From assembly GCA_964402225.1 (NCBI GenBank), contig CAYOBQ010000018.1, positions 9,290-73,289 of the forward strand: 64,000 nucleotides of DNA. The letters run 5' to 3'. Under the pieces are notes generated by a model. That model was given only the letters and a program-made list of their open reading frames with translations, was not told the DNA's origin and ran no database searches. Position numbers and translations under genes: made by a program. Source of the DNA: an uncultured Nannocystaceae bacterium. Lineage in GTDB: Bacteria > Myxococcota_A > Bradymonadia > UBA7976 > UBA1532. Shown here piece by piece: positions 3,024 to 64,000 of the stretch. The number at the start of each line of letters is the position of its first letter. The first letter of the stretch is position 1.

Positions 3024-3680
3024 TCAGGCGCGATCGAGGACCCAGGCGCCGCGCGTGTTTGTGTAGGGGTCCTCGCTCACCTCCGCGGGACGCCCTCGGA
3101 CCACGTACCAGGGGGCGCTCTCGCTGGCGCGGTAGCGCTCGCCCTCCACCGGGAGCTCGCCGTCGCAGACCATGCGCGCGGCGAGCCCGAAGGCCGCTGC
3201 CTGGGCGGGGCCGGCGTCCGCGGCGTCGTAGGGGACGGCGACATCCGGCAGGTCGAAGGCCTGCATCCCCTCCGTACAGACCTCCGTGTCGTCGCCCCAC
3301 ACCTCGACGAAGAGGTGGAAGAGGGCCACCGCGTCGTCGGGGGCGATCCCGCTCAGCGCCCCGGCGCCGAAGACCTTCACGGCGGTCTCGACATAGGCGC
3401 CCACCGCGCCAGCCTCGAAGGCGTCGATGAGCAGCCGCGCCACCTGCGTCGCGGGGCCGAGATCCCCTGGCCCCTCGAACTCGGCGGCGGCCTGGAGGAC
3501 AGCGCGGTGGCGGTGGATGGCGCTGACATCGCGGTCGTCGATGACCTGGGCCCTTCGCCCGATGGACTCGAAGGCCGCCGCGAGCTCGGGATCGGCGGGG
3601 CCGAACTCGAGGGGCACATCGGAGTCGATGGCGGGTGGCTCACGCCACGGGCCGGCGATGCTGATCAGGATGCGACCCAT
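3024..3680 (-). CDS. Hypothetical protein, 218 aa.
   Basis: The ORF has balanced amino-acid composition and GC-rich third codon positions. It starts 4 nt after the stop of the small upstream lipoprotein ORF, which is an operon-like arrangement. Confidence 0.55.
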   Translation of the reverse strand: MGRILISIAGPWREPPAIDSDVPLEFGPADPELAAAFESIGRRAQVIDDRDVSAIHRHRAVLQAAAEFEGPGDLGPATQVARLLIDAFEAGAVGAYVETAVKVFGAGALSGIAPDDAVALFHLFVEVWGDDTEVCTEGMQAFDLPDVAVPYDAADAGPAQAAAFGLAARMVCDGELPVEGERYRASESAPWYVVRGRPAEVSEDPYTNTRGAWVLDRA

Positions 3681-3683
3681 GGC

Positions 3684-3902
3684 TCAGGGCTCTCCTTCGG
3701 TGTCGGGTCCCGCGTCGGGCGGGGGCTGGGGATCGACGAGGACGCACCACTTCTCGGGGCTGCACGCGGCGCGCGGGCCGAGATCGGCGCAGTCGGCGCG
3801 GGTCTCGCACTCCGTCCGCTCGAGGTCGGGGTCGCAGGAGAGGAGCGCGGCGGCGAGGACGAGGGCGCGGATCACGGGCCGTATGATACTCCTCTCAGGC
3901 AT
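3684..3902 (-). CDS. Small secreted lipoprotein, ~72 aa.
   Basis: The internal start reads MPERSIIRPVIRALVLAAALLSC|DPD (signal peptide plus lipobox) and is followed by a Cys-containing mature region. The longer ORF 3684..4031 is probably an upstream extension. The start codon shares the sequence CATG with the divergent gpmI start, so confidence is reduced. Confidence 0.4.
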   Translation of the reverse strand: MPERSIIRPVIRALVLAAALLSCDPDLERTECETRADCADLGPRAACSPEKWCVLVDPQPPPDAGPDTEGEP

Positions 3903-41971: not shown

Positions 41972-41975
41972 GGTT

Positions 41976-41998
41976 GCCCGTGAGTGAACCTCACGGGC
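41976..41998 (-). promoter_or_regulatory. Perfect 8-bp inverted repeat (GCCCGTGA n7 TCACGGGC), 5-27 nt upstream of the start codon of the 1107-aa gene.
   Basis: The plus-strand sequence is gcccgtgagtgaacctcacgggc. It lies between the stop of the upstream lipoprotein gene (42023) and the ATG at 41971. No U-tract is present. It could be a leader hairpin or an operator. Confidence 0.25.
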
Positions 41999-42022
41999 TT
42001 ATACCGCAACGCGGATCGAGAT

Positions 42023-42556
42023 TCACGGGTAGCTGGAGTTGCCCACCGTGACGGTGTCGTAGGGCACGTCGTCGATGCCGAAGCGGCACTGTTTGCCCGA
42101 GGCGCAGAAACAGTCGGTCTTCTCGTAGTTCGGGCTGCAGAAGCCGTCGTGGCCGCTATCTTCCGTGCACTCGACCGGCATGCACGCGACGATCCACTTG
42201 AGGTTGCCGATGACGATGCGCCCGCCCACCTGGGCCAGCGGGATCGTGTCCGTCCGGTTCTCGCCCGTGGCGGCGGTGCCGAAGCGCAGGAGGTTGAGTC
42301 CGTCTTCGAGGCGAGCGACGGCGAAGCGCTCGATCTCGCCTCCATCGGGGAAGCTCCGGGAGAGCCGGTTCCGGTGGAGGACGATCCGTCCGTTCTCGGC
42401 GATGTGCGCCACCGCGACGCGCCGTCCGGCGCCGTCGGCCTTGGACACCTCGGCGGAGAGCTCGTTGGGATCGATGTGGGTGATCTCCGGCTCGGCGACG
42501 TCCGCGCTGCAGGCGGCGAAGGAGAGGGAGAGGAGCAGAATCGAGAGGTGTCGCAT
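42023..42556 (-). CDS. Small lipoprotein (177 aa) with a Cys-containing C-terminal region.
   Basis: The N-terminus MRHLSILLLSLSFAAC|SAD is a lipobox. The composition is complex. Confidence 0.6.
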   Translation of the reverse strand: MRHLSILLLSLSFAACSADVAEPEITHIDPNELSAEVSKADGAGRRVAVAHIAENGRIVLHRNRLSRSFPDGGEIERFAVARLEDGLNLLRFGTAATGENRTDTIPLAQVGGRIVIGNLKWIVACMPVECTEDSGHDGFCSPNYEKTDCFCASGKQCRFGIDDVPYDTVTVGNSSYP

Positions 42557-50614: not shown

Positions 50615-51914
50615 GCCCGACGACCAACGGCATCAGGAGGAGCGCGACCCCCGAGCCGCCGGGGCGGGCCGAGCAGCGCGGGGGGTCTGCGCCGTCGTCC
50701 ACGAAGTCCACGGTGGGGGTGATGACCAGCCCGCCGTCGGGGGGCGGCGCGGGCGCGTGACCGTCGCCCTCGGGCTCGTCTCCCGCGTCGGGATCCGGCG
50801 CCGCCCCGGCGTCGCGCCCGGGCTCGGGCTCTGGATCGGGCTCCGGCTCCGGCTCCGGCTCCGGTTCGGGCTCGGCGCCCGGGGCGCACGCGCCGCCGCC
50901 GCCCTGTGTCGGGACGCACTCGGCGCCCTCCGGGCAGGTGTCGGGGCCGCTGCATTGCTGGGAGCACGACGCCCGCCGACCATCGGAGAGGCACAGCCCC
51001 GACTGACAGTCCGCGCCGCCCTCGCAGGGGTCACCGAAGGCGCCGTCGCCGCCAGCGTCTGCGTCGGGCAGGCAGATGTCGGCGACCTCGCCGCCTTGGA
51101 ACTGCACGCGCTGACACGACCACCCCTGGGGGCAGTCACCGCCGCACTCGCGGGTGCAAAACGAATCCCCCCCTTGCCCGCCGACGCAGAAGTTCCCCGC
51201 GGCGCAGGCCCCGCCCGGGCCGCAGGGGTCGCCGACGGCCCCCTCTCCGTCGGGGCCGGGCTCGGCGCAGCTCCCGAAGCGGCAGACTCGGCCCGCCGCG
51301 CAGTCGCCGTCGTCGCGGCACTCGGGGGCGACGTCTGAGGGGTACAGCGCGCAGACGCCCTCGATGTCGTCCCCGTCGAGCGTCCGGCCGCCGGTGCCGC
51401 CGAGGTAGGCGGCGAACATCGTCGCGGCGCGGCTGCCGGAGTGGTTGAGGCCGAGCTGGTGGCCGGTCTCGTGGGTGATGATCGACTGCGCGTCGACTTG
51501 CCCCGGGCGCCGGGGGGTGGTGGTCCACTGGTGGTCGATGCCGTTGAAGAGGATGTCCCCGTCAACCGCTTGGCGACCCTGGAAGACGCTGAGCGTGACG
51601 CCGATCGTCGAGCGCCCGCCGAGCTCCCGCGGGCGCTCGTTGGGATCGTAGATCCACACCAGCGTGTTCACCCGGTCGCGGGCGTTCCAGAGGCCCTGCG
51701 TCTCGCCGCCAAGGGCCGAGGTGTAGCCGGTGCAGGCCGGCGCCTCCCATGCGTCGTAGCTGGCCTGAATCACCTCGAGGGTGGTCCCGCGTCCAAGCTC
51801 GGCGGAGCTCGCGGTGTTGACCTCGTAGCGGACGGGGAGCGGCCAGGTGAAGCCCGTGGGGTTCCAGGCGGTGGCGGCGCCGGCGAGCAGGGTGAGCAAG
51901 ACGACGCGGGTCAT
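50346..51914 (-). CDS. Secreted matrixin-like (M10) zinc metalloprotease with a Cys-rich domain, a PEPEPEP linker and a MYXO-CTERM-like tail. No stop follows the tail, so the annotated end is probably too long.
   Basis: The signal is MTRVVLLTLLAGAATA. HETGHQLGLNHS fits HExxHxxGxxH. The C-terminus reads ...[33 protein letters not shown]. The frame then continues ~80 Arg-rich codons antisense to the HEAT gene, down to 50346. Confidence 0.7.
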   Translation of the reverse strand: MTRVVLLTLLAGAATAWNPTGFTWPLPVRYEVNTASSAELGRGTTLEVIQASYDAWEAPACTGYTSALGGETQGLWNARDRVNTLVWIYDPNERPRELGGRSTIGVTLSVFQGRQAVDGDILFNGIDHQWTTTPRRPGQVDAQSIITHETGHQLGLNHSGSRAATMFAAYLGGTGGRTLDGDDIEGVCALYPSDVAPECRDDGDCAAGRVCRFGSCAEPGPDGEGAVGDPCGPGGACAAGNFCVGGQGGDSFCTRECGGDCPQGWSCQRVQFQGGEVADICLPDADAGGDGAFGDPCEGGADCQSGLCLSDGRRASCSQQCSGPDTCPEGAECVPTQGGGGACAPGAEPEPEPEPEPEPDPEPEPGRDAGAAPDPDAGDEPEGDGHAPAPPPDGGLVITPTVDFVDDGADPPRCSARPGGSGVALLLMPLVVGLSRRRRGRGRCDTRRGRGGAPARRARPPGVRRRRGRASRRRGPPARGPRGARRAPAGAPSDPPPRRRSGRGRGRPRRAPARRDRPTPAG

Positions 51915-52468
51915 CGGGCCACCTCCCCGCCGCCGAATCCGAGTTGGACCGCTCGGCCGACCGCGTCGCGCAGCGCGGGCAGGCTGAAGACCTCGGGGTC
52001 GGTGGCCACCTCCACGGCCCCGGCGCGGTAGAAGGCGAGGCCCCCGAGATCCCGGGAGACGGTGGGCCCGCCGGTCCCGCGGCGCACGTGGTAGACGCCC
52101 TGGGCCAATCCGACGACGAAGGTGAGCTGGCGGGCCGGATCGACGTCGAGGAAGGCGACGACCTCGTCCCCCTCCTCGAGCCGGGCGTTGCCCGTCACCC
52201 GCATCGAGAGGTCACCGAGGTGTCCGCCGAGCTGCTGCACCACCAGCGTCGTGGGGCCGTCCCCCTCGAGGTAGCGGTGCACGCTCAGGATGGTGCGGGT
52301 GTAGATCTCGCCGCGGGGGCCGCGCGCCGGCACCACGTAGCGGTCGACGACGTCGGCGTGGACGACGAGGCTCGCCTCGGCGGTGAGCTGGGCGACCGTC
52401 AGGCGGGTCGACACCGTCGCCCACGCGGGGCTCGACGCAAAGAGCAGGAGCAGGAGGGCGCGCGGCAT
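51911..52468 (-). CDS. Small secreted hypothetical protein (~185 aa), translationally coupled (ATGA) to the downstream M10 protease gene.
   Basis: The signal peptide is MPRALLLLLFASSPAWA. The body is complex. It may be a chaperone, inhibitor or propeptide-like partner of the protease. Confidence 0.5.
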   Translation of the reverse strand: MPRALLLLLFASSPAWATVSTRLTVAQLTAEASLVVHADVVDRYVVPARGPRGEIYTRTILSVHRYLEGDGPTTLVVQQLGGHLGDLSMRVTGNARLEEGDEVVAFLDVDPARQLTFVVGLAQGVYHVRRGTGGPTVSRDLGGLAFYRAGAVEVATDPEVFSLPALRDAVGRAVQLGFGGGEVAR

Positions 52469-52594
52469 CGGATCTCCCCACCAGTGATCGCGAATCGATC
52501 GGTAGCGAGGGGAAAGCACGGCTCATGCCAGGGCCCAATTGTGCCGATACCGGGAGGTCACGCTAGAGTTGGACGGCACCTCGGGAGGACCAGG

Positions 52595-54856
52595 ATGCGC
52601 GCCGGGCTCTGTATCTTGTTGGTCTGGGCGGGCGGCGCAGTCGCCCAGCCCTTCTCCGAAGACGTCGATCGCGCGGTCGATCGGGGTCTGGCGTGGCTCG
52701 TAGCCAACGGCGCGTTCCAGGACCCCAGCCTCGCCGGGGACGCCGCCGGGGTCGCGGCGTTGGCGATGCTGGAGCGGCGAGAGGGGGAGGCCTTCGCCCC
52801 GGCGGTCGGGTACGACGGGGCGAGCGACGAGGATCGCGGGCGCCTGGACCAGATCTTCGGCCACATCCTGCGGCAAGCCCTGGCGGAGGACTTCTACGCC
52901 TACCGCGACGGGGTCGATCTGATGGCCCTGTCGGTGTACCTGCGCACCGGGGGCGCTCGACGGCTGGACGCGGTCGCCGCGGTGAACGTGGTGGTCGACC
53001 GCGTCGTCGAGAACCAGGGAGAGCACGGCTACTGGACGGGGAGCAACGGGGCCACCCGGGACTCCTCGGCCACCCAGCTCGTCATGGCGGGGCTCGGCGC
53101 GGCCCGGGCGGTCTACGGCGATCCGGAGTTCGCGGACGCGGACCGGCTCGCCACCCTCGACGCGGCCACGGCCCTCGCGCGGGCGGCCTACGCGGCCAAC
53201 GGTCTCGCCGGTGGACTCGACGAGCGGGAGCGAGGGCACGGCTACCAACAGGGCAACCTGCCCTCCCTCCAGCAGACGGCGTCGGGGCTCTGGTGCCAGG
53301 TCATCGGCGGCGCCGATCTCAACGACGACGGGGTCCAGGCGTACCTGCGCTGGCTCTACCACCGCTACAACTACGGGAGCATCGAGGCGGCCGATGGCAG
53401 CCACCGCACCTCGCTGCTCTACTACCTGTGGGCGAGCACCCGGGCCTACACCTTCCTCGACGCGTCCCGCGTGGTCGCGGCGCCGGGGAACCTGCCGCCC
53501 TCGGCGCTGGGGACGCTGCCCGCCGATGCGGCGCCGGCGTATGCGACGCGGTCGCTGCACCGGGTCCCGGAGGACGATCCGCGACCGCCGGCCTTCGGCG
53601 TGGAGGGCGCCGGGTTCTACGCGGAGACCGAGCCCGGTTGGTACTACGACCACGCGTACTCGTTGCTGGCGATCCAGGACGGCGGGGGTCGGTTCGTGCC
53701 GCCGGGCGGGGTGTGGAACGACTTCGCGGGGCAAGCCTACGCGTTGCTCGTCCTCGAGCGGTCGGTGGGGGGCGGCTGCGTGGATCACGACGGGGACCAC
53801 GCGTGCCTGGGGTTCGACAACTGCCCGGAGGTGGCGAACCCGGACCAGGCGGACCGCGATGAGGACGGCTACGGCGACGCGTGCGACGGGTGCCCCGAGG
53901 TCGCTGACGACCAGAGGGACGGGGATCTCGACGGGGCCGGTGACGCCTGCGACGTGTGCCTCGACCTCGCCGACGACCAGGCGGACGGGGATGAGGATGG
54001 CGTGGGCGATGCCTGCGACAACTGCCCGGCGCAGCCGAACCCGGAGCAGGGGGACCGCGACGAGAACGGGGTCGGCGACTTCTGTGACGTGGGCTGTGAG
54101 GACGGGCCCTTCGAGGAGGTGTGCAACCAGCTCGACGACGACTGCGATGGGGCCACCGACGAGGGGCTCGAGGGCTGCGGCTGCGTGGAGGAGGAGATCG
54201 CCTGCGACGGGATCGACGAGGACTGCGACGACGCGGTGGACGAGGGGCTGCACAACGCCTGCGGAGAGTGCGGTCCGTTGCCGGAGGAGATCTGCAACCG
54301 AGGCGACGATGACTGCGACGGCGACATCGACGAGGGGGTCCAAAACGCCTGCGGAGGGTGTGGGGAGGTGCCCGTCGAGGTCTGCAATCGGGAGGACGAC
54401 GACTGCGACGGCGCCACCGACGAGGGGGTCCAAAACGCCTGCGGCGCGTGCGGGGAGCCGCCCATCGAGGTCTGCAACCGGGAGGACGATGACTGCGACG
54501 GGGCCACCGACGAGGGGGTCCAAAACGCCTGCGGTGCGTGCGGCGAGGTGCCCGTCGAGGTCTGCAATCGGGAGGACGACGACTGCGATGGGGCCACCGA
54601 CGAGGGGGTCCACAACGCCTGTGGCGGATGTGGGGCGGTGCCCGTCGAGATCTGCAACGGCGCCGATGACGACTGCGATGGCGAGACCGACGAGGCGGTC
54701 CAAAACGCCTGCGGGGGGTGTGGGGCGGTCCCCGTCGAGATCTGCAACGACGCCGACGACGACTGCGATGGGCGCACCGACGAGGGCGTCCAGAACGACT
54801 GTGGCGCCTGCGGTGCGGCGCCCCTCGAGATCTGCAACGACGCCGACGACGACTGA
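52595..54856 (+). CDS. Secreted protein with an alpha/alpha-toroid (prenyltransferase/terpene-cyclase-like) repeat domain, TSP3-like repeats and tandem MopE Cys-rich repeats. It ends at an in-frame TGA inside a repeat.
   Basis: GGGAGG lies 10 nt before the ATG. The signal is MRAGLCILLVWAGGAVAQP. QNQGEHGYWTGSNGATRDSSATQLVMAGL is toroid-like. DNCPEVANPDQADRDEDGYGDACD is TSP3-like. The unit CNREDDDCDGATDEGVQNACGACGE is repeated. Confidence 0.75.
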   Translation: MRAGLCILLVWAGGAVAQPFSEDVDRAVDRGLAWLVANGAFQDPSLAGDAAGVAALAMLERREGEAFAPAVGYDGASDEDRGRLDQIFGHILRQALAEDFYAYRDGVDLMALSVYLRTGGARRLDAVAAVNVVVDRVVENQGEHGYWTGSNGATRDSSATQLVMAGLGAARAVYGDPEFADADRLATLDAATALARAAYAANGLAGGLDERERGHGYQQGNLPSLQQTASGLWCQVIGGADLNDDGVQAYLRWLYHRYNYGSIEAADGSHRTSLLYYLWASTRAYTFLDASRVVAAPGNLPPSALGTLPADAAPAYATRSLHRVPEDDPRPPAFGVEGAGFYAETEPGWYYDHAYSLLAIQDGGGRFVPPGGVWNDFAGQAYALLVLERSVGGGCVDHDGDHACLGFDNCPEVANPDQADRDEDGYGDACDGCPEVADDQRDGDLDGAGDACDVCLDLADDQADGDEDGVGDACDNCPAQPNPEQGDRDENGVGDFCDVGCEDGPFEEVCNQLDDDCDGATDEGLEGCGCVEEEIACDGIDEDCDDAVDEGLHNACGECGPLPEEICNRGDDDCDGDIDEGVQNACGGCGEVPVEVCNREDDDCDGATDEGVQNACGACGEPPIEVCNREDDDCDGATDEGVQNACGACGEVPVEVCNREDDDCDGATDEGVHNACGGCGAVPVEICNGADDDCDGETDEAVQNACGGCGAVPVEICNDADDDCDGRTDEGVQNDCGACGAAPLEICNDADDD

Positions 54857-54917
54857 GACGGCGCCACCGACGAGGGGGTGCAAAAAGCCTGAGGGGGGTG
54901 AGGGGGGGTGCCCGCCG
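54288..54917 (+). repeat. Seven near-identical 90-nt tandem coding repeats, one MopE unit each. The last is degenerate and carries three TGA codons.
   Basis: The unit gtctgcaaccgggaggacgacgactgcgacggcgccaccgacgagggggtccaaaacgcctgcggcgcgtgcggggag recurs with a 90-nt period. High DNA identity suggests concerted evolution or an assembly hazard. Confidence 0.8.
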
Positions 54918-56188
54918 AGGTCTGCAACGGCCGGGACGACGACTGCGACGGCGCCATCGACGAGATCCACGCGGGGCGCTGCGACACGGAGCGACCGGGG
55001 CTCTGTGCCAATGGCCGCTGGCGCTGCGTGGACGACGAGCGGGTCTGCGTGACGAACAACGAGCCGAGGGCGGAGGTGTGCGACGCGATCGACAACGACT
55101 GCGACGGGGAGACGGACGAGGACACGCCCGGCGCCGGCGAGCCGTGCGTGACCCGAACCCCCGGCGTGTGCTCAGAGGGGGAGCGGCACTGCCTCGGCGG
55201 CGAGATGCGGTGCCGTCGGCACTTGCAGCCGGCGGACGAGGTCTGTGACGGAGAGGACGACGACTGCGACGGCACCATCGACGAGGGTCGACGCAACGCG
55301 TGTGGTCGCTGTGAGGCCCCAGACCCGGAGGTGTGCGACGGGCTCGACAACGATTGCGACACCGTCGTCGATGAGGCGGCGAGCTGCGACGGGGATCGGA
55401 CCTGTCGGTTCGGGCGCTGCCTGGCGCCGTGCGAGGGGGAGGTCTGCCCCGCCGGCGAGCTGTGCGTGGGGGGGCTGTGCGTGCTGCCCTGCGACCTCGT
55501 CGAGTGCGCGCCGGGGGAGCGCTGCGAGTTGGGCGTGTGCATCGACCCCTGCGCCGACGTGAAGTGCGGCCGGGGTGAGTTCTGCGTGGCGGGTGAGTGC
55601 CACGACTCGTGCGAAGACGAGGCGTGCCCGCCGGGGCAGCGCTGCGAGGACGGGGCGTGCGTCCCCGACGCCTGCGCGGACGCGAACTGCGCGGCGGGCG
55701 AGGCCTGCGTGGATGGCGAGTGCGTCGCGAGCTGCGCGCGGATCTCGTGCCCCGCCGACGAGGTCTGTGTCGACGGAGTGTGCGTGTCCAACCCCTGCGA
55801 GGGCCTCGATTGCCCCGAGGATCGGGCCTGCGGGGATGGCGAGTGCGGCGAGCCCTGCGAGGGCGACCCCTGCGCGGCCGTCGTCTGCCCTCGGGGCCAG
55901 GAGTGCACGGTCGTGCTGTGCAGCGGACAATGCCGCTTCGACACCTCCCTCGACGACCCCGAGGTCGTCGATCCGAACGCGCCGGACGGGGGCGGTGACG
56001 GAGACGGGGGCGGGGGCGGGCGACAGGGGCGTGGCGATGGCGGGCTCACCGGTGGCGACGGGGCGTTGGGGGCCAGCGAGTCCTCGAAGGGCCCCGCCAG
56101 CGACAACTGTGACTGCGACACGTCGGGCGCTGCGCCGGGGTTGTTCCTGATGCTGCTCGCTATGCGAAGGCGCCGACCTCCGGTGTGA
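54908..56188 (+). CDS. Same-frame continuation of the 52595 gene. It carries further Cys-rich EGF/MopE-like modules and a MYXO-CTERM tail.
   Basis: It is in frame with 52595..54856 across TGAs at 54854, 54890 and 54899. The C-terminus reads ...SDNCDCDTSGAAPGLFLMLLAMRRRRPPV*, a Cys motif followed by a TM helix and an Arg cluster. Confidence 0.7.
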   Translation: MPAEVCNGRDDDCDGAIDEIHAGRCDTERPGLCANGRWRCVDDERVCVTNNEPRAEVCDAIDNDCDGETDEDTPGAGEPCVTRTPGVCSEGERHCLGGEMRCRRHLQPADEVCDGEDDDCDGTIDEGRRNACGRCEAPDPEVCDGLDNDCDTVVDEAASCDGDRTCRFGRCLAPCEGEVCPAGELCVGGLCVLPCDLVECAPGERCELGVCIDPCADVKCGRGEFCVAGECHDSCEDEACPPGQRCEDGACVPDACADANCAAGEACVDGECVASCARISCPADEVCVDGVCVSNPCEGLDCPEDRACGDGECGEPCEGDPCAAVVCPRGQECTVVLCSGQCRFDTSLDDPEVVDPNAPDGGGDGDGGGGGRQGRGDGGLTGGDGALGASESSKGPASDNCDCDTSGAAPGLFLMLLAMRRRRPPV

Positions 56189-56200
56189 TACTCAGCGCGG

Positions 56201-57667
56201 ATGAGCGAGCTGACGAACCCCTACGCGACCGCCCTCGATGGGCTCGAGATCGACGACCCGGTGGCGGCCTTCTTTCGATTCTGCCGGGAGCGCGAGCGCG
56301 TCCGCGTCTTGCGGGAGACCGGCGCGCCGGCGCCGTGGACGGAGGACCCCATCCTGCAACGGGGGCGCTTCCTGAACGTCTTTCGTGAGGACGACCGGGG
56401 CAGCCGGGCGATCCTGCGCTTCGCCGAGCCGGTGCGCGACGATCTGCCGACGCTGGTCCAAGCGCTCTTCTTCGCGCGGTGGTGTAATCGGCAAGCGACC
56501 CTCGACGTGCTGTCCGCCGACGTGCTGGCCGATCCCGCGCGCTTGCGGCGGGTCCTCGAGACCGAGGTTCCGCAGCCTTGGTGCAACGTCACGGCCTACC
56601 CCGTCGAGCCCGTCTGCTGGGAAGGGACGCTCCACTCCCGAATCGAGACCGCCACCGAGCTCTTCTTCGAGAATCGGGGCTTCCTGCGCGACGCGATCCT
56701 CAGTGGCGAAGGGAGCGTCGTTCGAGCCACCGCGGCGGTGAACGCGGGGCTCGGCATGCGCAACGACTTCCCCATCTTCATGGCCGTGATGGATCTGGCC
56801 TGGTTCCGCCCCGACGTGGTGGATCCGGCGAGCCCGGTGCCCACCGGCATCGGCGCGGTGGCCTTCCTCGACCGCCTGCAGCGGCACCTGGGTCTCGAGG
56901 ACCACCACGAGACGTGCGCGCGGATGATCGCGCTGGCAGAGGTACATTGGCCCGAGGCGCGACGCCGGTTTCAGCCGATCGACATCGAGTACCTCGCCTG
57001 CGAGTGCAGGAAGTACTTCAGCTACGTGAATGGCACGAAGGCCTTCGAGGGCAAGAACGTCTTCCGCCCTGGAGAGTCCGCCCAGCTCGTCTTTGATGTG
57101 CCCGCAGACGCGGTCCCAACCGCGGGGACGCCCACCGGAGTCCACGTCGTCGCGGGGGGGCCCTGCTCGGGGAAGACCACGCTCCTCGAGGCGCTGGCGG
57201 AGGCGGGGCATCGTGTCGAGTACGAGACCGCGGAGCGGGTCCTGAAGGCCGGGATCGACCGTGGCCGCTCCGCCGACGCGCTGCGGGCGGATCCGGTCGA
57301 GTGGCAACGGACCCTGCTCGAACAGGACTTCGCGCTCTTCGACGGGCTGCCCACCGACGCGTGCGTCTTCACCGACACGTCGTTTGTCGAGACCCTCGTC
57401 TTCGGCGCCCGCGCGGGGATCACGATCGGCCCCAACGTCGAGGCCTGGCTTCGGCGCAAGCGTTACGCGACGGTCTTCTTCCTCGATCCGCTGCGCTACG
57501 AGCGCAGCGCCGTGCGGGTGGAGTCGCAACGGACGGCCGCGCGGATCAGCGACGAAGTGCGCGCGGCCTATCGACGCTACGGCTACGAGTTGGTCGTCGT
57601 CCCCGCGATGCCCGTCGCCGAGCGGTTGGCCTTCATCCAGTCGATCGTGGGCGACACGCTCGACTGA
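56201..57667 (+). CDS. Two-domain protein. The N-terminal ~320 aa resemble, from memory, the aGPT-Pplase 'DNA base hypermodification' family. The C-terminal part is a NadR/AAA_28-like P-loop kinase domain.
   Basis: The N-terminal block is FFRFCRERERVRVLRETGAPAPWTEDPILQRGRFLNVFREDDRGSRAIL. The C-terminus reads HVVAGGPCSGKTTLLEALAEAGHRVEYETAERVL...ATVFFLDPL (Walker A GxxxxGKT, Walker B hhhhD). Confidence 0.7.
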   Translation: MSELTNPYATALDGLEIDDPVAAFFRFCRERERVRVLRETGAPAPWTEDPILQRGRFLNVFREDDRGSRAILRFAEPVRDDLPTLVQALFFARWCNRQATLDVLSADVLADPARLRRVLETEVPQPWCNVTAYPVEPVCWEGTLHSRIETATELFFENRGFLRDAILSGEGSVVRATAAVNAGLGMRNDFPIFMAVMDLAWFRPDVVDPASPVPTGIGAVAFLDRLQRHLGLEDHHETCARMIALAEVHWPEARRRFQPIDIEYLACECRKYFSYVNGTKAFEGKNVFRPGESAQLVFDVPADAVPTAGTPTGVHVVAGGPCSGKTTLLEALAEAGHRVEYETAERVLKAGIDRGRSADALRADPVEWQRTLLEQDFALFDGLPTDACVFTDTSFVETLVFGARAGITIGPNVEAWLRRKRYATVFFLDPLRYERSAVRVESQRTAARISDEVRAAYRRYGYELVVVPAMPVAERLAFIQSIVGDTLD

Positions 57668-57694
57668 GTCGACCGGTGATGCGAACGTCTCCCG

Positions 57695-60600
57695 GTGCGC
57701 CTCGCCGCGTTCGAGCTCGAGACCCCTATCGCCAGCGGCGGCATGGGCGAGGTCTGGCGTGGGCGCCATCTCGACACCGGGGTGCCCGTCGCCATCAAGC
57801 TGCTGACCGAGCGGTTGGCGCGGGAGCCACGGCTCGTGCGGGCCTTTCGGGACGAGGTGCGGGCGATGGCCGCGCTGGACCACCCGGGCGTGGTGCTGGT
57901 CCACGACTACGGGCAGGTCCCGGAGGAGACGGCGGCCCGGTCTGAGGGTCAGTTCGTCGCGGGATCGCCCTACCTCGTGATGGAGTTCGTCGAGGGTGGC
58001 CCCAAGGCCCCGGGATCGTTGCGGAACTGGGCGGAGCTGTGCGCGGCGCTCACGGCGCTCACCGACGCGCTGGCCCACGCCCATGCCCGGGGGGTGGTCC
58101 ACCGGGACCTCAAGCCGGCCAACGTGCTCTGGAGCGCCACCGGCATCAAGCTGACTGACTTCGGGATCGCCCATGCGCTGCGCGGGGCCACCGAGCCCGG
58201 GGGCGAGGAGGGGCTCCTGGGGACGCCGGCCTACATGGCGCCGGAGCAATGCTGGGGGGACTGGCGGGATCTTGGGCCATGGACCGATCTCTACGCCCTG
58301 GGCTGCCTCGCCTACTCCTTGGCGACGGGGGGCCCGCCCTTCGACGCCGAGTCCCCCTTCGACATCCTGGACCAGCACCTGCGCGCGGCGCCGCCGCCCT
58401 TCGAGCCACGGTTCTCCGTCCCCGCCGGCTTCGAGGTCTGGCTCGACAGGCTGCTGCGAAAGAAGCCCTACGAGCGCTTCCAGCGGGCGGCGGACGCGGC
58501 GTGGGCGCTACAGCGACTGAGCCACGTGGACGACGAGCCCTCCGAGCCGTCGGTCGCGACCACGCTCGAGCCCGACACGATCCTGGCGGACATCGAGATC
58601 GTGCCCCGCGGCACGGAGGGTCCGCCGCCGGTGGTCGAGGGGGGGGCCGGGGCGCTGCCCGAGTCGGCGCGTCCTCCGCCCCCCACCGACTGGCGGCTCG
58701 CGCGGGAGACGGCGAGCACGCTCAACCGGATGAGCCTCGGGCTCTACGGCCTACGGACGCTGCGGCTGGTCGGACGCGAGTCGGAGCGCGAGGCGCTGTG
58801 GCGCGCGCTGCGCACCGTGCACGCGGAGCGTAGCTGTCGGGTGGTGGTGTTGCGCGGCGCGACCGGCGTCGGCAAGTCGAAGCTCGCGGACTGGCTCTGC
58901 GAGCGGGCCCACGAGCTGGGCGCCGCGACTCCGCTGCGGGTGGCGCACGCCCGCGACGGGGCCGCCTCCGCCGGGCTCACGGCCACGCTTCGACGCCACT
59001 TCAGCGCCCATGGCCTCTCCCGTGCGGAGCTGCGGACGCGGCTGAGACGGGTGCTCGAGCGCGATCCGACGGCTGAGGTGGAGGAGCCGGAGGCGCTGGC
59101 GGGGTTCCTGGCCCCCGCCACGGAGGAGGAGGAGGCCGCCGGTGAGCCCGTCGTCCGCTTCTCGAACCCCGCCGAGTGGCACCTGTTGGTCGCGCGGCAC
59201 CTGACGCGGCTGTCGCGGGAGCGGCCGGTGCTGCTGTGGCTGGACGACGCGGAGTGGGGTCTCGAGACGCTGCTCTTCGCGCGCCAGCTCGTGGAGTGGG
59301 ACAGCGCGCCGGTGCTGTTGGTCGTGAGCGCCGGGGAGGGCGCGCTGGCGGAGCGAGAGGCCGAGGCCCACGCGATCGACGCGCTCGCGCGCACCCGCGG
59401 CGCGTTGACCTTGGATTTGAAGGCCCTGCCCAGCCACGACCACGCGCGGCTCGTCCGCGCGCTGCTCGATATGGACGACGCCCTCGCGACGCGAGTCCAG
59501 CGACGCACCGCCGGCAACCCCCTCTACGCCGTGCAGCTCGTGCGAAGCTGGGTGCAAAACGGGCTGCTCGTGCCGGGGCCCAACGGGTTCTGCCTGGCGG
59601 AGGGCGCGACCATCGATCTGCCCACCGACCTGCACGAGGTCTGGTCTGCCCGGGTCATGCGGGTGCTCGCGGACCGGTCGGCGGACGACGAGTTGGCCGT
59701 CGAGCTGGCGGCGACGCTGGGGGTTGATGTCGACGACGACGAGTGGCTGGGCGCATGCGCCGCGGCGGGGGTCCGACCCTCGCCCTCGCTGCGTGACGAG
59801 CTCTTCCGCGCGCGCATCGTGCGACGGGGCTCCGGTGGCCGCTGGGTCTTCGGCCACGCGATGTTGCGGGAGAGCCTCGAACGACGCGCCCGCGACGGAG
59901 GACGGCTCGCGGCCCATCATCAGGCCTGCGCGCGCATGCTGGCGCGGCGCGGTGGCGTCCCGGAGCGACGGGGGCACCACCTCCTCGCCGCCGGTGCGGT
60001 CGACGCCGCGTTGACCGCCTTCGCGGAGGGGGCGAGGCGCCACCTCGCGCGCGGCGAGTTCGCGATGGCCGAGCAGATTCTGGGCGAATGGCGGGACGCC
60101 CAGGCGAAGCTCGGCCCGAACCGGCAGATGGGGATGGGGGTGCTGCTCGAGGCGTGGCTCGCCAACGAGCGCGGGGAGCTCGACGTCGCGCGGATGCTCG
60201 CCGAGGACGCTGTACGGCACGCGCGAGCGGAGTCGCGGCCGGAGGTGGAGGGGCGCGGCCTGATGCGCCTGGGCCGGATCGACTTCGAGGCCGGCCGGAT
60301 GGACCCCGCCCGGGACGCCCTCGCCCAGGCCCGATGCGTCCTGGCACCGCTGGAGCGCCCGGACCTGATGGGCGAGTGCCTGCGCCGGACTGGGCACGTG
60401 CTCACCGCCATCGGGGAGCACCTGCGCGCCGACGAGGTCTACCAGGCGGCGGTCCGAGCCTACGAGGCCGCGGGGAACGCCGACGCCGCGGCCTACGTCC
60501 TGCTGGACCGGGCGATGCTCGCCAAGCAGATGGGGCGGCTGGAGCACGCGGCGGGCCTCATCCGCGCGGCGCGTCGCGGTCTCGAGGGCGCCTCACGCCT

Positions 60601-61129
60601 CGAGACCGCGAACCTGGTCCACGACCTGGGCGAGGTCGAGCGGCTGCGCGGGCGCCTCGATGAGGCCGTGCGCTGCTACCGCGAGGCTCTCGTCGTGTAC
60701 GACGAGGTGGGATCGATGTACGGCAGCTACGTGCGGATGAACCTCGGGCTCACCCTCCAGGCGCGGGGGCAGTACGCCGCCGCCGCCGACTTGATCTGCG
60801 AGGCGCTCCCGGAGGTCGAGCGCCAGGGTCGGCGGGTCCTGGTGGCCGCCGCCCACGTCTTCCTCTTGCCGTGCTACGCCGCCGCCGGTGACTGGGCGGC
60901 CTGGGACCGCCACGCCGAGATCGGCTTCGACACCCTGGATGAGGTGGGGGTCTTCGAGGTCGACTTCGCCCGCACCGCACAGCTCGGAGCCGAGCTCGCC
61001 ACCGCGGCGGGCCAGCCCGAGCGCGCCCGCCGCGCGTGGCAAGCAGCCCTCGCGCAATGGCAGGGCCTGCACCGAGACGAGCGCGCCGCCGTCGCCGCCG
61101 CCGGCCTGCGCGGCTGCGCGCCTTCCTGA
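57695..61129 (+). CDS. Ser/Thr protein kinase fused to an AAA/STAND ATPase and TPR-like C-terminal repeats (1144 aa).
   Basis: The kinase blocks are GGMGEVWRG, VAIK, HRDLKPANVL, DFGIA and APE. Walker A is VVVLRGATGVGKSKLA and Walker B is VLLWLDDAEW. A helical-repeat tail follows. It starts 27 nt after the previous gene. Confidence 0.9.
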   Translation: MRLAAFELETPIASGGMGEVWRGRHLDTGVPVAIKLLTERLAREPRLVRAFRDEVRAMAALDHPGVVLVHDYGQVPEETAARSEGQFVAGSPYLVMEFVEGGPKAPGSLRNWAELCAALTALTDALAHAHARGVVHRDLKPANVLWSATGIKLTDFGIAHALRGATEPGGEEGLLGTPAYMAPEQCWGDWRDLGPWTDLYALGCLAYSLATGGPPFDAESPFDILDQHLRAAPPPFEPRFSVPAGFEVWLDRLLRKKPYERFQRAADAAWALQRLSHVDDEPSEPSVATTLEPDTILADIEIVPRGTEGPPPVVEGGAGALPESARPPPPTDWRLARETASTLNRMSLGLYGLRTLRLVGRESEREALWRALRTVHAERSCRVVVLRGATGVGKSKLADWLCERAHELGAATPLRVAHARDGAASAGLTATLRRHFSAHGLSRAELRTRLRRVLERDPTAEVEEPEALAGFLAPATEEEEAAGEPVVRFSNPAEWHLLVARHLTRLSRERPVLLWLDDAEWGLETLLFARQLVEWDSAPVLLVVSAGEGALAEREAEAHAIDALARTRGALTLDLKALPSHDHARLVRALLDMDDALATRVQRRTAGNPLYAVQLVRSWVQNGLLVPGPNGFCLAEGATIDLPTDLHEVWSARVMRVLADRSADDELAVELAATLGVDVDDDEWLGACAAAGVRPSPSLRDELFRARIVRRGSGGRWVFGHAMLRESLERRARDGGRLAAHHQACARMLARRGGVPERRGHHLLAAGAVDAALTAFAEGARRHLARGEFAMAEQILGEWRDAQAKLGPNRQMGMGVLLEAWLANERGELDVARMLAEDAVRHARAESRPEVEGRGLMRLGRIDFEAGRMDPARDALAQARCVLAPLERPDLMGECLRRTGHVLTAIGEHLRADEVYQAAVRAYEAAGNADAAAYVLLDRAMLAKQMGRLEHAAGLIRAARRGLEGASRLETANLVHDLGEVERLRGRLDEAVRCYREALVVYDEVGSMYGSYVRMNLGLTLQARGQYAAAADLICEALPEVERQGRRVLVAAAHVFLLPCYAAAGDWAAWDRHAEIGFDTLDEVGVFEVDFARTAQLGAELATAAGQPERARRAWQAALAQWQGLHRDERAAVAAAGLRGCAPS

Positions 61130-61184
61130 CGGAGCCCGCTCCAAGGGGTCCGGAGCCGGATCTCGACCTCCCTTGCGCTTTCAG

Positions 61185-61220
61185 TTGACAGTTTTTGTCG
61201 AAAATGAGAAAAACTGTTCA
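61185..61220 (+). promoter_or_regulatory. AT-rich (~30% GC) palindromic element with a TTGACA -35-like hexamer, 18-53 nt upstream of the 61238 start. Candidate promoter plus operator.
   Basis: The sequence is TTGACAGTTTTTgtcgaaaatgagAAAAACTGTTCA. There is a perfect 8-bp inverted repeat (CAGTTTTT / AAAAACTG) with a 12-nt spacer. It is embedded in ~70% GC DNA. AAGGAGG lies 8 nt before the ATG. Confidence 0.45.
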
Positions 61221-61237
61221 CCAGAAGGAGGCACTCG

Positions 61238-62107
61238 ATGCGGTATCTGACTCTCATCTCGGTCCTGGCGCTCAGCGGCTGCGTCGTCGACGAAAGCGCG
61301 CGGGGCCCGTCGTGCGCGGGCGAATCCGTTGTGCAGTCCGGCCTCGAGTTCTGCGTCATCATCGAGAAGGGCTTCTTGATGGCGGTGTGCCCCCCGGAGG
61401 CCCCCGAGCGACACGAGTTCGACGACGCGCTCGTCTGCGCGCCGGCGGAGGCGGACGCCGAGGACGCCGCCGTGGCGCGGGCTGAGGCGGTCGCGCCCGA
61501 GGGCCGGCCGGACGGGGCGCCGCCGATCAGTCCCGACGCCTGGCCGCCACCCTTCAATGGCTTGACCCGACACGACGCTTGCAGCTCCCCATTCCCCGAG
61601 GGCCCGCCGCCGTTGCCGATGACCAGAATGGTGGACGGTCGGCCCCGCTTCGACGAGTGGCGGGACCTGGACTGCGATGCGCTACGCCCGGACGAGCGCG
61701 GGCTCGGAGCGCCGTGTGGAGGTCCTGACGATGCCGAGTGCGAGCATATCTGCCTTCGGGGTCGCCCTGGGGGGCGCGGCGTGTGTACCTATGGAGACAT
61801 CGACATCTGGTGCGATGGAGAGGGCGAGGTGGTGAGCTACTGGGACGGTGATTGTTGGATGTGCATGCCTTCGGCTCACCACGCGATGGCGTGTTGTCTC
61901 GAGCTCGAGGGCTTCGACTGTCGTGCCTGGCCCTTCCCCTCGGATGGCCGCCCAGGGACACCGTGCGCGATTCACGAGGACTGCGAGCCCGGGCTCGTGT
62001 GTGGCGCCCACCGTGGTTCGGGCTACGGGATCTGCCAGTGCCCCGAGCTCGACGATCCGGACCTCGCTCCCGCCGCCGAAGGCCAGTGCCTTGATGCCCC
62101 CGGCTGA
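61238..62107 (+). CDS. Cys-rich lipoprotein (289 aa).
   Basis: The N-terminus MRYLTLISVLALSGC|VVDE is a lipobox. There is a strong SD. The mature part has many Cys, Asp and Gly residues. Confidence 0.65.
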   Translation: MRYLTLISVLALSGCVVDESARGPSCAGESVVQSGLEFCVIIEKGFLMAVCPPEAPERHEFDDALVCAPAEADAEDAAVARAEAVAPEGRPDGAPPISPDAWPPPFNGLTRHDACSSPFPEGPPPLPMTRMVDGRPRFDEWRDLDCDALRPDERGLGAPCGGPDDAECEHICLRGRPGGRGVCTYGDIDIWCDGEGEVVSYWDGDCWMCMPSAHHAMACCLELEGFDCRAWPFPSDGRPGTPCAIHEDCEPGLVCGAHRGSGYGICQCPELDDPDLAPAAEGQCLDAPG

Positions 62108-62846
62108 TCGCGAGCTCGTCGACCGGGTGGTCTTCTCGCTGCTGCTCCCGGCGGCGCGGATCGCCCAGCGGTACGGGCTGCCGCTGCGCGCCCTCACCGA
62201 GTCCTCGAAGCTCGCGGGCTTCCACCAGGCGCGGGGCCAGGGGCTCAAGCTGCGGGAGATCGTGGACCGGCTCGGCGTGAGCATGAGCGCGGCGGCGCGG
62301 CTGTCGAAGCGGCTGAAGCACAACTTCCTGCGGCCCGAGATCGAGCATGAGCTGCCGTGCCGAATCGAGTTCGCGCTATGGCCGGGGCCGCTGGGGGAGG
62401 CGCGCCTTGCTCAAGCGCTCCCCGATGTCGAGCCGGCGCTCATCGTCGAGACGCTCGAGGGGCTCGCCGAGGAGGGCAGCGTCGAGCGCGTAGGGGGACG
62501 CACCGTGACCTGGCGCTTGCTGCGCGCCGTCGACCGCCGCGTCGCCCCGGACCTCTACGCGCGCATCGATGGGCTCAATTCGCTGTGTGGGGTCCTGGCC
62601 GACGCGGTCTATGCCCGCTTCTTCCGTGACGAGCCCACGGCGTTTGCGCGCAGCCTGATGCTGCGGATCCGCCGGGAGGACGTCGAGACGCTCGAGCGCT
62701 TCTACGAGGACGAGCTCTGGCCGTTGCTCGCCCGGCTCGACGAGGCCGCCGAGGCTCACGACGACACCATCGAGCTGGGCTTTGGCCTCATGTGGGCGCC
62801 CCACGAGAGGCTCCGCCGCGACACGCCCCCGGCCGACCCGGAGTAG
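62094..62846 (+). CDS. Putative HTH-containing regulator, ~250 aa.
   Basis: The start is MPPADRELVDRV.... KLREIVDRLGVSMSAAARLSKRL looks like a helix-turn-helix. The ORF-track start at 61848 is an extension that overlaps the previous gene. Confidence 0.5.
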   Translation: MPPADRELVDRVVFSLLLPAARIAQRYGLPLRALTESSKLAGFHQARGQGLKLREIVDRLGVSMSAAARLSKRLKHNFLRPEIEHELPCRIEFALWPGPLGEARLAQALPDVEPALIVETLEGLAEEGSVERVGGRTVTWRLLRAVDRRVAPDLYARIDGLNSLCGVLADAVYARFFRDEPTAFARSLMLRIRREDVETLERFYEDELWPLLARLDEAAEAHDDTIELGFGLMWAPHERLRRDTPPADPE

Positions 62847-62923
62847 GCGGCTCGAGGACACCGCGGAGCGCCCCAGCAGCGCGAGCAGAGTCGCGGCCCG
62901 ACCTGTCGGCCCACCCGAACCCG

Positions 62924-63913
62924 TCAGGGAGACGGGTACATCGCGTCGACGCGGTCGCGCAGGAGCTCTTGCCAGTCGGTCGGGTTCGTCGAGCGGGTGA
63001 GCGTGATCGGGCTCGCCAGATCGATGGTGCTCGTCGCCGCGAGGTCGCCGAAACGAGTGGCCTCGTAGTGCCCGGCGGTGTCGGCTCGGATCTCGATCGT
63101 CCCCGTCGCGCTGGTCAGCGCGACCACCGCGTTGCTCGGGCCGTCTTGTTCGTACTTCGCGAAGGTCGCGGCGCCGACGAGATCGGGCAGGTGGTGCTGC
63201 GCCGTTGGATCCGAAGAGACGAGGACGTAGCGCGCCGAGAGGCGGTTGAGCCGCTCCCACTGCGTGCCGTTGCCGCTGCCGTGGTGCGCGGTCTTGAGCA
63301 CCCTGCAGGGGGTGTTGAGCATGCCCTCGGCGTCGTAGGCAGCCCAGTTCTCCATCTGCGCGTCGGCGGCGAAGACCATCGAGAAGCTGCCCCACGTCAG
63401 GCGCGAGATGATCGAGAGGTGGTTGATGTCGAGCATGCTCGCGTCCTCGAGGTCGCTCGTCAGCCGGTTGGGGGGCCCCAGCAGCTCGAGGTAGAGCGCG
63501 CTCGGATCGATCGCACCGGCGGCGACCGCGCCCTCCGGGTAGATGCGCTGGTAGCCGGCGACGAAGCGCACCGGGATGTCCTGAGCCTCGATGGTGTTCA
63601 CCAGCGTGGCGTAGCTGGGGGAGACCAGCGAGTGCGCGTTCCAGAACGGGGCCAGGGTGACGGAGTCGACGGTGTAGTCCGCGAGCAGCGAGCCGGCGGC
63701 GCTGTAGTGGTCGTAGTGGGGGTGGGTGATGACGAGCTCTTCGATGTGACCGCCAGGCGGCAGGCCGAGGTCTTGGAGTAGCGGTCGCAGCTTGTTGGGC
63801 TTGACGGCGTCGATGACCATGATGGTGCCGCCGGGGGCCACCACCACGGCGGTGTCCGCTTGCCGCACGGCCAATACATAGATGTGTAGGTCTCCGTCGC
63901 CAGCGACGCTCAT
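62924..63913 (-). CDS. MBL-fold metallo-hydrolase.
   Basis: VITHPHYDHYSAAG is the HxHxDH zinc motif. A C-terminal His is present (TAHHGSGNG). Confidence 0.8.
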   Translation of the reverse strand: MSVAGDGDLHIYVLAVRQADTAVVVAPGGTIMVIDAVKPNKLRPLLQDLGLPPGGHIEELVITHPHYDHYSAAGSLLADYTVDSVTLAPFWNAHSLVSPSYATLVNTIEAQDIPVRFVAGYQRIYPEGAVAAGAIDPSALYLELLGPPNRLTSDLEDASMLDINHLSIISRLTWGSFSMVFAADAQMENWAAYDAEGMLNTPCRVLKTAHHGSGNGTQWERLNRLSARYVLVSSDPTAQHHLPDLVGAATFAKYEQDGPSNAVVALTSATGTIEIRADTAGHYEATRFGDLAATSTIDLASPITLTRSTNPTDWQELLRDRVDAMYPSP

Positions 63914-64000
63914 CGCCGCCTCCGCGCGGTCATCCGAGCGAACGCGGCCGCGGGGCGCTCACCGTCGCTCATCCGCACCCGGGCCCACGCACGCTCCGGC

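What the first reader, a model, noticed from the sequence alone, without database searches (positions are those of the whole stretch)
54854..54901. Three in-frame TGA codons sit exactly at conserved cysteine positions of a tandem MopE repeat.
In the seventh 90-nt repeat, the peptide that elsewhere reads CN.DDDCDG.TDEGVQNACG(A/G)CG instead reads CNDADDD*DGATDEGVQKA*GG*GG.

The TGAs at 54854, 54890 and 54899 replace the TGC, TGC and TGT codons of Cys 2, 3 and 4 of the motif. The reading frame is otherwise preserved through to a canonical MYXO-CTERM end at 56188.

TGA aligned to Cys in homologues is the classical signature of selenocysteine. The same region also carries several other C-to-A and C-to-G substitutions (aac to aaa, gtc to gtg). 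The three UGAs are too close (36 and 9 nt) for independent bacterial SECIS hairpins.

I consider the hypotheses in this order: (1) a localised consensus or collapse error in a high-identity tandem repeat; (2) recent pseudogenisation of a surface protein; (3) recoding (Sec) as a remote possibility.
Basis: seen in the sequence. Interest (0 to 1): 0.58.

Follow-up and report, generated by a model that had tools for sequence, protein, structure and literature searches.

The report
False stop codons from repeat misassembly
The three TGA codons are really in this sequence, but other assemblies of the same bacterial population read normal cysteine codons there, so they are almost certainly an assembly error inside a tandem repeat and not selenocysteine or a dead gene.

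Summary
TGA sits at 54854, 54890 and 54899, in frame, at Cys 2, 3 and 4 of one 90-nt MopE-type repeat unit. The frame stays open to a MYXO-CTERM-like tail ending at 56188.

The TGAs are not supported outside this window. Metagenome contigs from the same population match the window with 0 mismatches over 9,084 nt downstream and 2,587 nt upstream. In the affected unit they read TGT/TGT/TGT and AAC. They also carry one extra 90-nt unit that the window lacks.

All 8 window-only substitutions fall within 51 nt (54856-54906). Background divergence is about 1e-4 per nt.

None of the 14 other contigs retrieved for this locus spans the array; the 12 that reach it break inside it. Two have their own false stop 22 nt from the contig tip.

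No SECIS-like fold, Rfam hit or tRNA was found. In 78 related loci, none has an in-frame stop followed by MopE motifs.

Joining the window's left side to contig L001 gives one intact 1,227-aa surface-protein gene.

Not a real feature; low interest.

The parts
52595..56188 (+). One surface-protein gene, split in the window by three in-frame TGAs. As written it gives a 753-aa product plus a 3' remainder of up to 429 codons. Repaired it is 1,197 aa; with the missing unit restored it is 1,227 aa.
   Evidence: Translations. Homologues of 1,000-1,260 aa share the same architecture; P0002 is 53% identical over 100% of the query. The window-left plus L001-right reconstruction is a single ORF.
52595..53779 (+). 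Signal peptide (MRAGLCILLVWAGGAVAQ) and an N-terminal all-helical alpha/alpha-toroid-like domain of unknown function.
   Evidence: AlphaFold2 model with pLDDT 93.4 and pTM 0.91. Only weak fold matches (E >= 1e-3) to terpene cyclases, prenyltransferase beta subunits, glycoside hydrolases and complement thioester-containing proteins. No Pfam or PDB sequence hit.
53780..54088 (+). Thrombospondin type-3-like Asp-rich repeats (DxDxDGxGDxCD).
   Evidence: Tandem Repeats Finder period 66 at 53843-54019. PF02412 TSP_3 is precomputed on the near-identical products P0001 and P0121.
54203..55012 (+). Tandem array of 90-nt (30-aa) MopE-type Cys-rich units.
   Evidence: Tandem Repeats Finder period 90, 8.4 copies. 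Unit table. PF11617 Cu-binding_MopE scores 94.2 bits against a cutoff of 27.
54833..54922 (+). The affected unit. It corresponds to the penultimate unit of contig L001.
   Evidence: In the left register (L001 position 1 = window 54693) there are only 8 mismatches, all inside this unit.
54854..54856 (+). TGA at Cys 2. Contig L001 reads TGT.
54890..54892 (+). TGA at Cys 3. Contigs L001, L002 and L004 read TGT.
54899..54901 (+). TGA at Cys 4. Contigs L001, L002 and L004 read TGT.
54856..54906 (+). 51-nt stretch holding all 8 window-only substitutions: T>A three times, C>A, A>C, A>G and C>G twice. Position 54856 and the stretch 54886-54916 are covered by no 25-mer of any other contig then in hand (L001-L013).
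54922..54923 (+). Junction where the window lacks a 90-nt unit (TGCAATGACCGG...GAGTTGCCCGTGGAGGTC, peptide CNDRDDDCDGATDEGVQNACGGCGELPVEV) that L001 and L004 carry. L002 carries it with three differences (54838, 54842, 54843) within 75 nt of its contig start.
55400..55930 (+). Second Cys-rich repeat region, with units of about 60 nt of the type CxxxxCxxGxxCxxGxC.
   Evidence: Tandem Repeats Finder period 60 at 55487-55723. Translation.
56105..56185 (+). MYXO-CTERM-like sorting tail, NCDCDTSGAAPGLFLMLLAMRRRRPPV: a Cys motif, a hydrophobic stretch and an Arg run.
   Evidence: TIGR03382 scores 18.0 bits (cutoff 15.85) and TIGR03901 scores 18.2 bits (cutoff 20). The tripartite architecture is described in PMC11980579 (abstract seen).

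Best explanation
The three TGAs are an assembly or consensus artefact. The gene encodes a roughly 1,230-aa secreted, MYXO-CTERM-anchored protein. It contains an array of near-identical 90-nt MopE-type units in DNA of about 72% G+C. Short-read assemblers cannot resolve this array.

The contig behind this window is apparently a 75-kb NCBI MAG contig. It bridged the array by collapsing the last two canonical units into one. In doing so it carried a short stretch of erroneous base calls into the consensus. Six of the eight wrong bases replace a pyrimidine with a purine, so three Cys codons (TGT) became TGA.

What is shown: the disagreement with same-population contigs, the missing unit, and the confinement of the differences to 51 nt.

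What is inferred: that the window, rather than the other contigs, is wrong. The exact source of the miscalls is unknown.
For: 1. Same population. L001 and L002 show 0 mismatches to the window over 54917-64000 (9,084 nt). L009 shows 0 mismatches over 51911-54497.

2. In the affected unit these contigs read TGT, AAC GAC, TGT and TGT where the window has TGA, AAA GCC, TGA and TGA. L001, L002 and L004 agree on Cys 3 and Cys 4. They come from two pipelines (JGI and ENA) and three sample records.

3. Copy number. L001 and L004 hold an extra 90-nt unit between the affected unit and unit 54923.

4. Clustering. There are 8 differences in 51 nt, against 5 in 45,271 nt elsewhere. The Poisson probability is about 2.5e-23.

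5. None of the 14 other contigs retrieved for this locus spans the array, and the 12 that reach it start or end inside it. The right-hand gene is found only on contigs of 20 kb or less.

6. The same array produces false stops in other assemblies. The tips of L008 and L092 degenerate and give stops 22 nt from the contig end, in different units (products P0001, 663 aa, and P0121, 600 aa).

7. Joining the window's left side to L001 gives one uninterrupted 1,227-aa ORF.

8. Elsewhere the window is clean, with no other in-frame disruptions.
Against: - No raw reads could be inspected, so per-base support for the TGAs is unknown.
- The three T>A changes in a TGTG context are not a textbook error signature for any platform I can name.
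- The supporting contigs are tips that begin inside the array. L002 has its own tip errors.
- Only L001 reaches Cys 2 of the affected unit.
- The JGI and ENA assemblies may partly reuse the same reads.
Confidence: 0.93

Rival explanations
1. A real pseudogene allele. A subpopulation carries a copy of the gene that lost one repeat unit by slippage or recombination and acquired three nonsense mutations. The NCBI MAG assembled that variant.
For: Tandem arrays do vary in unit number. Small SNP-level variation exists between samples: 5 differences in about 45 kb. The frame is preserved, as expected for point mutations.
Against: Eight substitutions within 51 nt, against zero in the flanking 11.6 kb, is not how neutral decay looks. 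No donor sequence in the array could supply TGA by gene conversion. The variant stretch is absent from every other contig. The same array yields obviously artefactual stops at contig tips elsewhere.
Confidence: 0.05
2. Programmed recoding. The three UGAs are read as selenocysteine, or another amino acid, in a Cys-rich metal-binding repeat.
For: UGA aligned to Cys in paralogous units and in homologues is the classical Sec signature. There is a far sub-threshold NCBIfam hit to Omp28_seleno, but it lies elsewhere in the protein: 30 bits against a cutoff of 200, at residues 397-436.
Against: - Same-population contigs have TGT at these very sites.
- The 60 nt after each TGA fold no better than the same segments of TGC/TGT units (-17.8 to -18.9 kcal/mol against -17.5 to -32.4). 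No hairpin starts about 11 nt downstream.
- There is no Rfam match, even at E <= 10.
- Spacings of 36 and 9 nt leave no room for separate bacterial SECIS elements. This rests on established knowledge that bacterial SECIS elements lie immediately 3' of the UGA.
- 272 MopE cores in 78 related loci sit in uninterrupted ORFs, and none has a stop followed by in-frame MopE motifs.
- TGA ends 21 of the 24 coding-like ORFs that reach a stop in this window, so it is the ordinary stop codon here.
- There is no tRNA in the window.
Confidence: 0.01
3. Targeted hypermutation, for example a diversity-generating retroelement acting on one repeat unit.
For: The changes are tightly clustered. Four of them involve adenine in the window against T or C in other contigs.
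Against: Four of the eight changes do not involve adenine. No reverse transcriptase appears among the genes called within 10 kb on either side (precomputed Pfam). No template-like second copy of the stretch exists in the window.
Confidence: 0.01

Closest known systems
Collapsed or misassembled tandem repeat in a short-read metagenome-assembled genome
   Same: A high-identity 90-nt tandem array in DNA of about 72% G+C. Other assemblies break inside it. The bridging contig has one unit fewer and a local cluster of unsupported bases. Everything outside the array is identical.
   Different: The miscalls are substitutions only and keep the frame. By hitting Cys wobble positions they mimic a selenoprotein signature. 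Read-level proof is missing.
Bacterial selenoprotein genes (UGA plus an immediately downstream SECIS bound by SelB)
   Same: In-frame UGA at positions that are Cys in homologues.
   Different: No SECIS-like hairpin. Three UGAs within 48 nt. Same-population sequences have TGT. No related locus shows the pattern.
MopE-motif (PF11617), TSP3-repeat, MYXO-CTERM surface proteins of Myxococcota
   Same: The gene itself is an ordinary member: PF11617 at 94 bits, a TSP3-like region, and a Cys/hydrophobic/Arg-rich tail. Hundreds of full-length homologues occur in Myxococcota and Bradymonadia MAGs, often several per genome.
   Different: Its conserved N-terminal alpha/alpha-toroid-like domain has no Pfam family and no known function.

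Membership tests
Bacterial selenoprotein (Sec recoding) | In-frame UGA at a position occupied by Cys in homologues | tested here: met
   Holds in the window's own sequence only.
Bacterial selenoprotein (Sec recoding) | SECIS stem-loop immediately 3' of each UGA | tested here: not met
   Folds of the 60 nt after each TGA are no more stable than the equivalent segments of Cys-codon units, and no hairpin starts at about +11. No Rfam hit at E <= 10.
Bacterial selenoprotein (Sec recoding) | UGA present in other sequences of the same population, or UGA/Cys pairs in orthologues | tested here: not met
   L001, L002 and L004 read TGT. None of 78 related loci has a stop followed by in-frame MopE motifs.
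Bacterial selenoprotein (Sec recoding) | selA, selB, selC (tRNA-Sec) and selD in the genome | not testable with these tools
   Only the 64-kb window is available. It contains no tRNA.
Assembly artefact: collapsed tandem repeat | Lies inside a high-identity tandem repeat longer than typical short reads can anchor | tested here: met
   90-nt period, 8.4 copies, 82% matches.
Assembly artefact: collapsed tandem repeat | Independent assemblies of the same population agree everywhere except in the repeat | tested here: met
   0 mismatches in 9,084 nt and in 2,587 nt of flanks. 8 mismatches in 51 nt inside the affected unit.
Assembly artefact: collapsed tandem repeat | Copy-number discrepancy between assemblies | tested here: met
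   The window lacks a 90-nt unit present in L001 and L004, and in L002 with tip differences.
Assembly artefact: collapsed tandem repeat | Raw reads do not support the variant bases | not testable with these tools
   No access to reads. The runs to use are those named (SRR8062346, SRR8062348 and SRR8062351).
Pseudogene | Disruptions shared by other sequences of the lineage, and changes spread over the gene | tested here: not met
   The stops are absent from L001, L002 and L004. All changes lie within 51 nt.
PF11617 Cu-binding_MopE repeat protein | Score above the Pfam gathering threshold | tested here: met
   94.2 bits against a cutoff of 27, on the protein with the three stops read as Cys.
MYXO-CTERM sorting signal | C-terminal Cys-containing motif, hydrophobic helix and Arg-rich end, scoring above the NCBIfam cutoff | tested here: inconclusive
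   TIGR03382 GC_trans_RRR scores 18.0 against 15.85 and passes. TIGR03901 scores 18.2 against 20 and just fails. The tripartite layout is visible in the sequence.
Diversity-generating retroelement target | Adenine-specific differences plus a nearby reverse transcriptase and template repeat | tested here: not met
   Half of the changes do not involve adenine. No reverse transcriptase appears among neighbours within 10 kb.

The most novel reading that the evidence does not exclude
The TGA-bearing unit is a genuine allele in part of the population. It could be a locally hypermutated, truncated variant of a surface protein or, far less likely, a triple-Sec MopE unit read without canonical SECIS elements.
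Probability: 0.04. Interest if true: 0.55.

Novelty: not a real feature. Interest (0 to 1): 0.07.

Why it matters
It matters mainly as a caution. A cluster of miscalls in a Cys-rich, GC-rich tandem repeat can imitate the textbook selenoprotein signature of UGA aligned to Cys.

The resulting truncated products are already in public protein collections. P0122 (753 aa) comes from the NCBI contig. P0001 (663 aa) and P0121 (600 aa) come from ENA assemblies.

Screens for new selenoproteins or recoding in MAGs should discount UGA/Cys pairs that lie inside tandem repeats, unless reads or independent assemblies confirm them.

The gene itself is an ordinary member of a large Myxococcota surface-protein family.

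Tried and rejected
- **Collection scans.** Exact and degenerate pattern scans of metagenome contigs and genome contigs for the junction found nothing. The pattern was verified on the window and the loci, so those collections do not hold this population.
- **Exact look-ups of the window's truncated products.** The 753-aa and 426-aa products were not on record. The 753-aa product is nevertheless in the protein clusters as P0122, from a 75,142-bp NCBI contig. I could not fetch that record or name the organism.
- **Literature search for sample and run identifiers.** No hits.
- **SECIS.** No specific fold and no Rfam match.
- **A second possible in-frame double stop at 41999-42025 on the minus strand.** It is a normal intergenic spacer containing an inverted repeat.
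- **Omp28_seleno NCBIfam hit.** 30 bits against a cutoff of 200, in the Asp-rich TSP3 region. I rejected it as low-complexity similarity.
- **N-terminal domain.** No Pfam or PDB sequence match. The fold search gave only a generic alpha/alpha-toroid resemblance.
- **Simple consensus of two collapsed units.** Rejected as the sole cause. At six of the eight window-only changes (54856, 54886, 54892, 54895, 54901, 54906) the window has a base found in neither of the two L001 units.

Full report
**Observation**

TGA occupies 54854-54856, 54890-54892 and 54899-54901. All three are in the frame of one 90-nt unit (54833-54922) of a tandem array: period 90, 8.4 copies, 82% matches, at 54208-54964. The unit translates CNDADDD*DGATDEGVQKA*GG*GGVPAEV, where the sister units read CN..DDDCDG.TDEGVQNACG.CG.

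The frame is open from ATG 52595, which starts a signal peptide (MRAGLCILLVWAGGAVAQ), through to the stop at 56186-56188. The window is 69-75% G+C. TGA ends 21 of the 24 coding-like ORFs that reach a stop, so it is the usual stop codon here. A window-wide scan for in-frame stops flanked by coding-like composition on both sides returns only these three as real disruptions. The others are antisense frames or gene borders.

**The gene**

With the three stops read as Cys, the product is 1,197 aa. It scores 94.2 bits on PF11617 Cu-binding_MopE, against a cutoff of 27. The tail NCDCDTSGAAPGLFLMLLAMRRRRPPV passes TIGR03382 and narrowly misses TIGR03901 MYXO-CTERM. It has the tripartite Cys/hydrophobic/cationic layout described for MYXO-CTERM (PMC11980579, abstract seen).

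A protein search gives 1,648 homologues. Many are full-length at 1,000-1,260 aa with the same architecture and intact cysteines. P0002, for example, is 53% identical over 100% of the query. The gene should therefore be a single long ORF.

**Independent copies of the same locus**

Exact look-ups of the flanking genes returned metagenome contigs from JGI, ENA and Logan assemblies of sister samples. The flanking genes used were 56201-57667 on the plus strand and 51911-52468 on the minus strand.

- On the right, L001 and L002 are identical to the window over 54917-64000: 9,084 nt with 0 mismatches.
- On the left, L009 is identical over 51911-54497.

These contigs therefore come from the same population. 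None of them spans the array. Right-hand contigs L001, L002 and L004 start inside it (at 54603, 54770 and 54793 in right-anchored coordinates). The left-hand contigs that reach it end inside it, between 54152 and 54608. The right-hand gene is found only on contigs of 20 kb or less.

**What those copies read**

In the register where L001 position 1 equals window 54693, the two sequences are identical except for 8 substitutions. All 8 fall in 54856-54906:

- T>A at 54856, 54892 and 54901, which are the three TGAs (TGT in L001)
- C>A at 54886 (AAC>AAA)
- A>C at 54888
- A>G at 54895
- C>G at 54897 and 54906

After this unit, L001 and L004 carry a further 90-nt unit (CNDRDDDCDGATDEGVQNACGGCGELPVEV) that the window lacks, before both sequences continue identically from 54923. 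L002 has the same unit with three differences (54838, 54842, 54843), all within 75 nt of its contig start.

L002 and L004 independently confirm TGT at Cys 3 and Cys 4 of the affected unit. A 25-mer support map against contigs L001-L013 shows that 54856 and 54886-54916 are covered by none of them.

Background divergence among all these contigs is 5 differences in 45,271 nt. Eight differences in 51 nt then has a Poisson probability of about 2.5e-23. Joining window 52595-54692 to L001 gives one uninterrupted 1,227-aa ORF with 14 MopE cores.

**The array misleads other assemblies too**

- The tip of L008 (ENA ERZ23498983) degenerates over its last ~50 nt (12 of its 15 mismatches) and turns the Cys 2 codon of unit 54563 into TGA, 22 nt from the contig end. 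This yields the 663-aa product P0001.
- The tip of L092 (ENA ERZ23499048, a 63.6-kb scaffold) diverges completely over its last ~30 nt, again with a stop 22 nt from the end. This yields the 600-aa product P0121. That tail contains GAGCACACG.CTGA, which from memory resembles the Illumina TruSeq adapter.
- The same 90% cluster holds P0122. It is 753 aa, from an NCBI contig of 75,142 bp, and is identical to the window's truncated product. That contig is presumably the window's source, and it is the only record seen that bridges the array.

**Tests of the recoding hypothesis**

- The 60 nt following each TGA fold at -17.8 to -18.9 kcal/mol. The corresponding segments of units with TGC or TGT fold at -17.5 to -32.4 kcal/mol, so the TGA segments are no more stable. 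No hairpin starts about 11 nt downstream.
- Rfam gives nothing at gathering thresholds for the whole window, and nothing relevant at E <= 10 for 54600-55200.
- There is no tRNA in the window.
- In 78 related loci from GTDB genomes, mostly Myxococcota and Bradymonadia MAGs, 272 MopE cores sit in uninterrupted ORFs. Most of these ORFs end in LLLL...RRRR tails. No locus has an in-frame stop followed by MopE motifs.
- Together with the TGT codons in same-population contigs, this rejects Sec.
- The sub-threshold Omp28_seleno hit (30 bits against a cutoff of 200) lies in the Asp-rich TSP3 region and is not meaningful.

**Other readings**

A true pseudogene allele is not strictly excluded without reads. 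However, neutral decay does not place 8 changes in 51 nt and none in 11.6 kb of flanks, and no unit in the array could donate TGA by conversion.

A diversity-generating retroelement is unsupported. Half of the changes do not involve adenine, and no reverse transcriptase is among the neighbours within 10 kb.

**Why TGA falls on Cys**

Cys codons (TGY) are one wobble change from TGA. Six of the eight miscalls replace a pyrimidine with a purine, raising purine content in the stretch from 65% to 75%. The unit is 13% Cys. The alignment of TGA with Cys is therefore a by-product of the error spectrum, not a sign of selection.

I cannot name the chemistry or software step that produced the miscalls. 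At six of the eight sites the window's base occurs in neither of the two L001 units that were merged, so a plain consensus of collapsed units does not explain it.

**Verdict**

The feature is an assembly artefact in an ordinary MopE/TSP3/MYXO-CTERM surface-protein gene. It is not a real biological feature and is of low interest, except as a warning for selenoprotein and recoding screens in MAGs. Confidence is 0.93. The remaining uncertainty is the lack of read-level evidence.

Noticed in passing
L008 (ENA ERZ23498983 scaffold_3097) and L092 (ENA ERZ23499048 scaffold_400): the contig tips, equivalent to window ~54555-54608 and ~54390-54419: Two other public assemblies end inside the same array with degenerate tips, and each has a false stop exactly 22 nt from the contig end. 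The resulting truncated proteins, P0001 (663 aa) and P0121 (600 aa), cluster with the window's 753-aa product P0122. The L092 tail (GAGCACACGACTGA) resembles, from memory, the Illumina TruSeq adapter.
   Followed up: partly
window 52595-53779: The conserved N-terminal domain of about 395 aa has no Pfam or PDB sequence match. AlphaFold2 gives a confident all-helical alpha/alpha-toroid-like model (pLDDT 93). It has only weak fold similarity (E >= 1e-3) to terpene cyclases, prenyltransferase beta subunits, several glycoside hydrolase families and complement thioester-containing proteins. It occurs in several copies per genome in Myxococcota and Bradymonadia MAGs.
   Followed up: partly
loci L070, L071, L073, L074, L077, L080, L082, L085, L091: Homologues of the N-terminal domain in Betaproteobacteria and Gammaproteobacteria MAGs are short (about 500-580 aa). 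Instead of MopE repeats and MYXO-CTERM, they end in a dockerin/EF-hand-like DxDGDGxI motif followed by a conserved C-terminal ...C.P.CTRPNCATQ. This could be a different sorting or anchoring signal.
   Followed up: no
window 56201-57667 (+) and 57695-61129 (+): The gene immediately downstream carries PF18723 HMUDK_hel plus PF13521 AAA_28 (precomputed Pfam). It is followed by a 1,144-aa Ser/Thr kinase with AAA_16 and TPR domains. The three genes share a reading frame and are tightly spaced.
   Followed up: no
window 54498-54692: This part of the array is only partly supported by 25-mers of contigs L001-L013: 54499, 54535-54544 and 54613-54692 are uncovered. The unit count and sequence there may also be unreliable, although the frame is intact.
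   Followed up: partly
window 3024-3683 (-) and 3397-5517 (+): Two stop-to-stop open frames on opposite strands overlap by about 290 nt, and both have GC3 of about 0.91. One of them is probably a shadow frame. A TGA at 3684 on the minus strand was flagged by the composition scan.
   Followed up: no
window ~41975-42000 (-): An inverted repeat (cccgtgaggttcactcacggg) lies in the spacer between two minus-strand genes that happen to share a frame. It explains an apparent double in-frame stop.
   Followed up: yes
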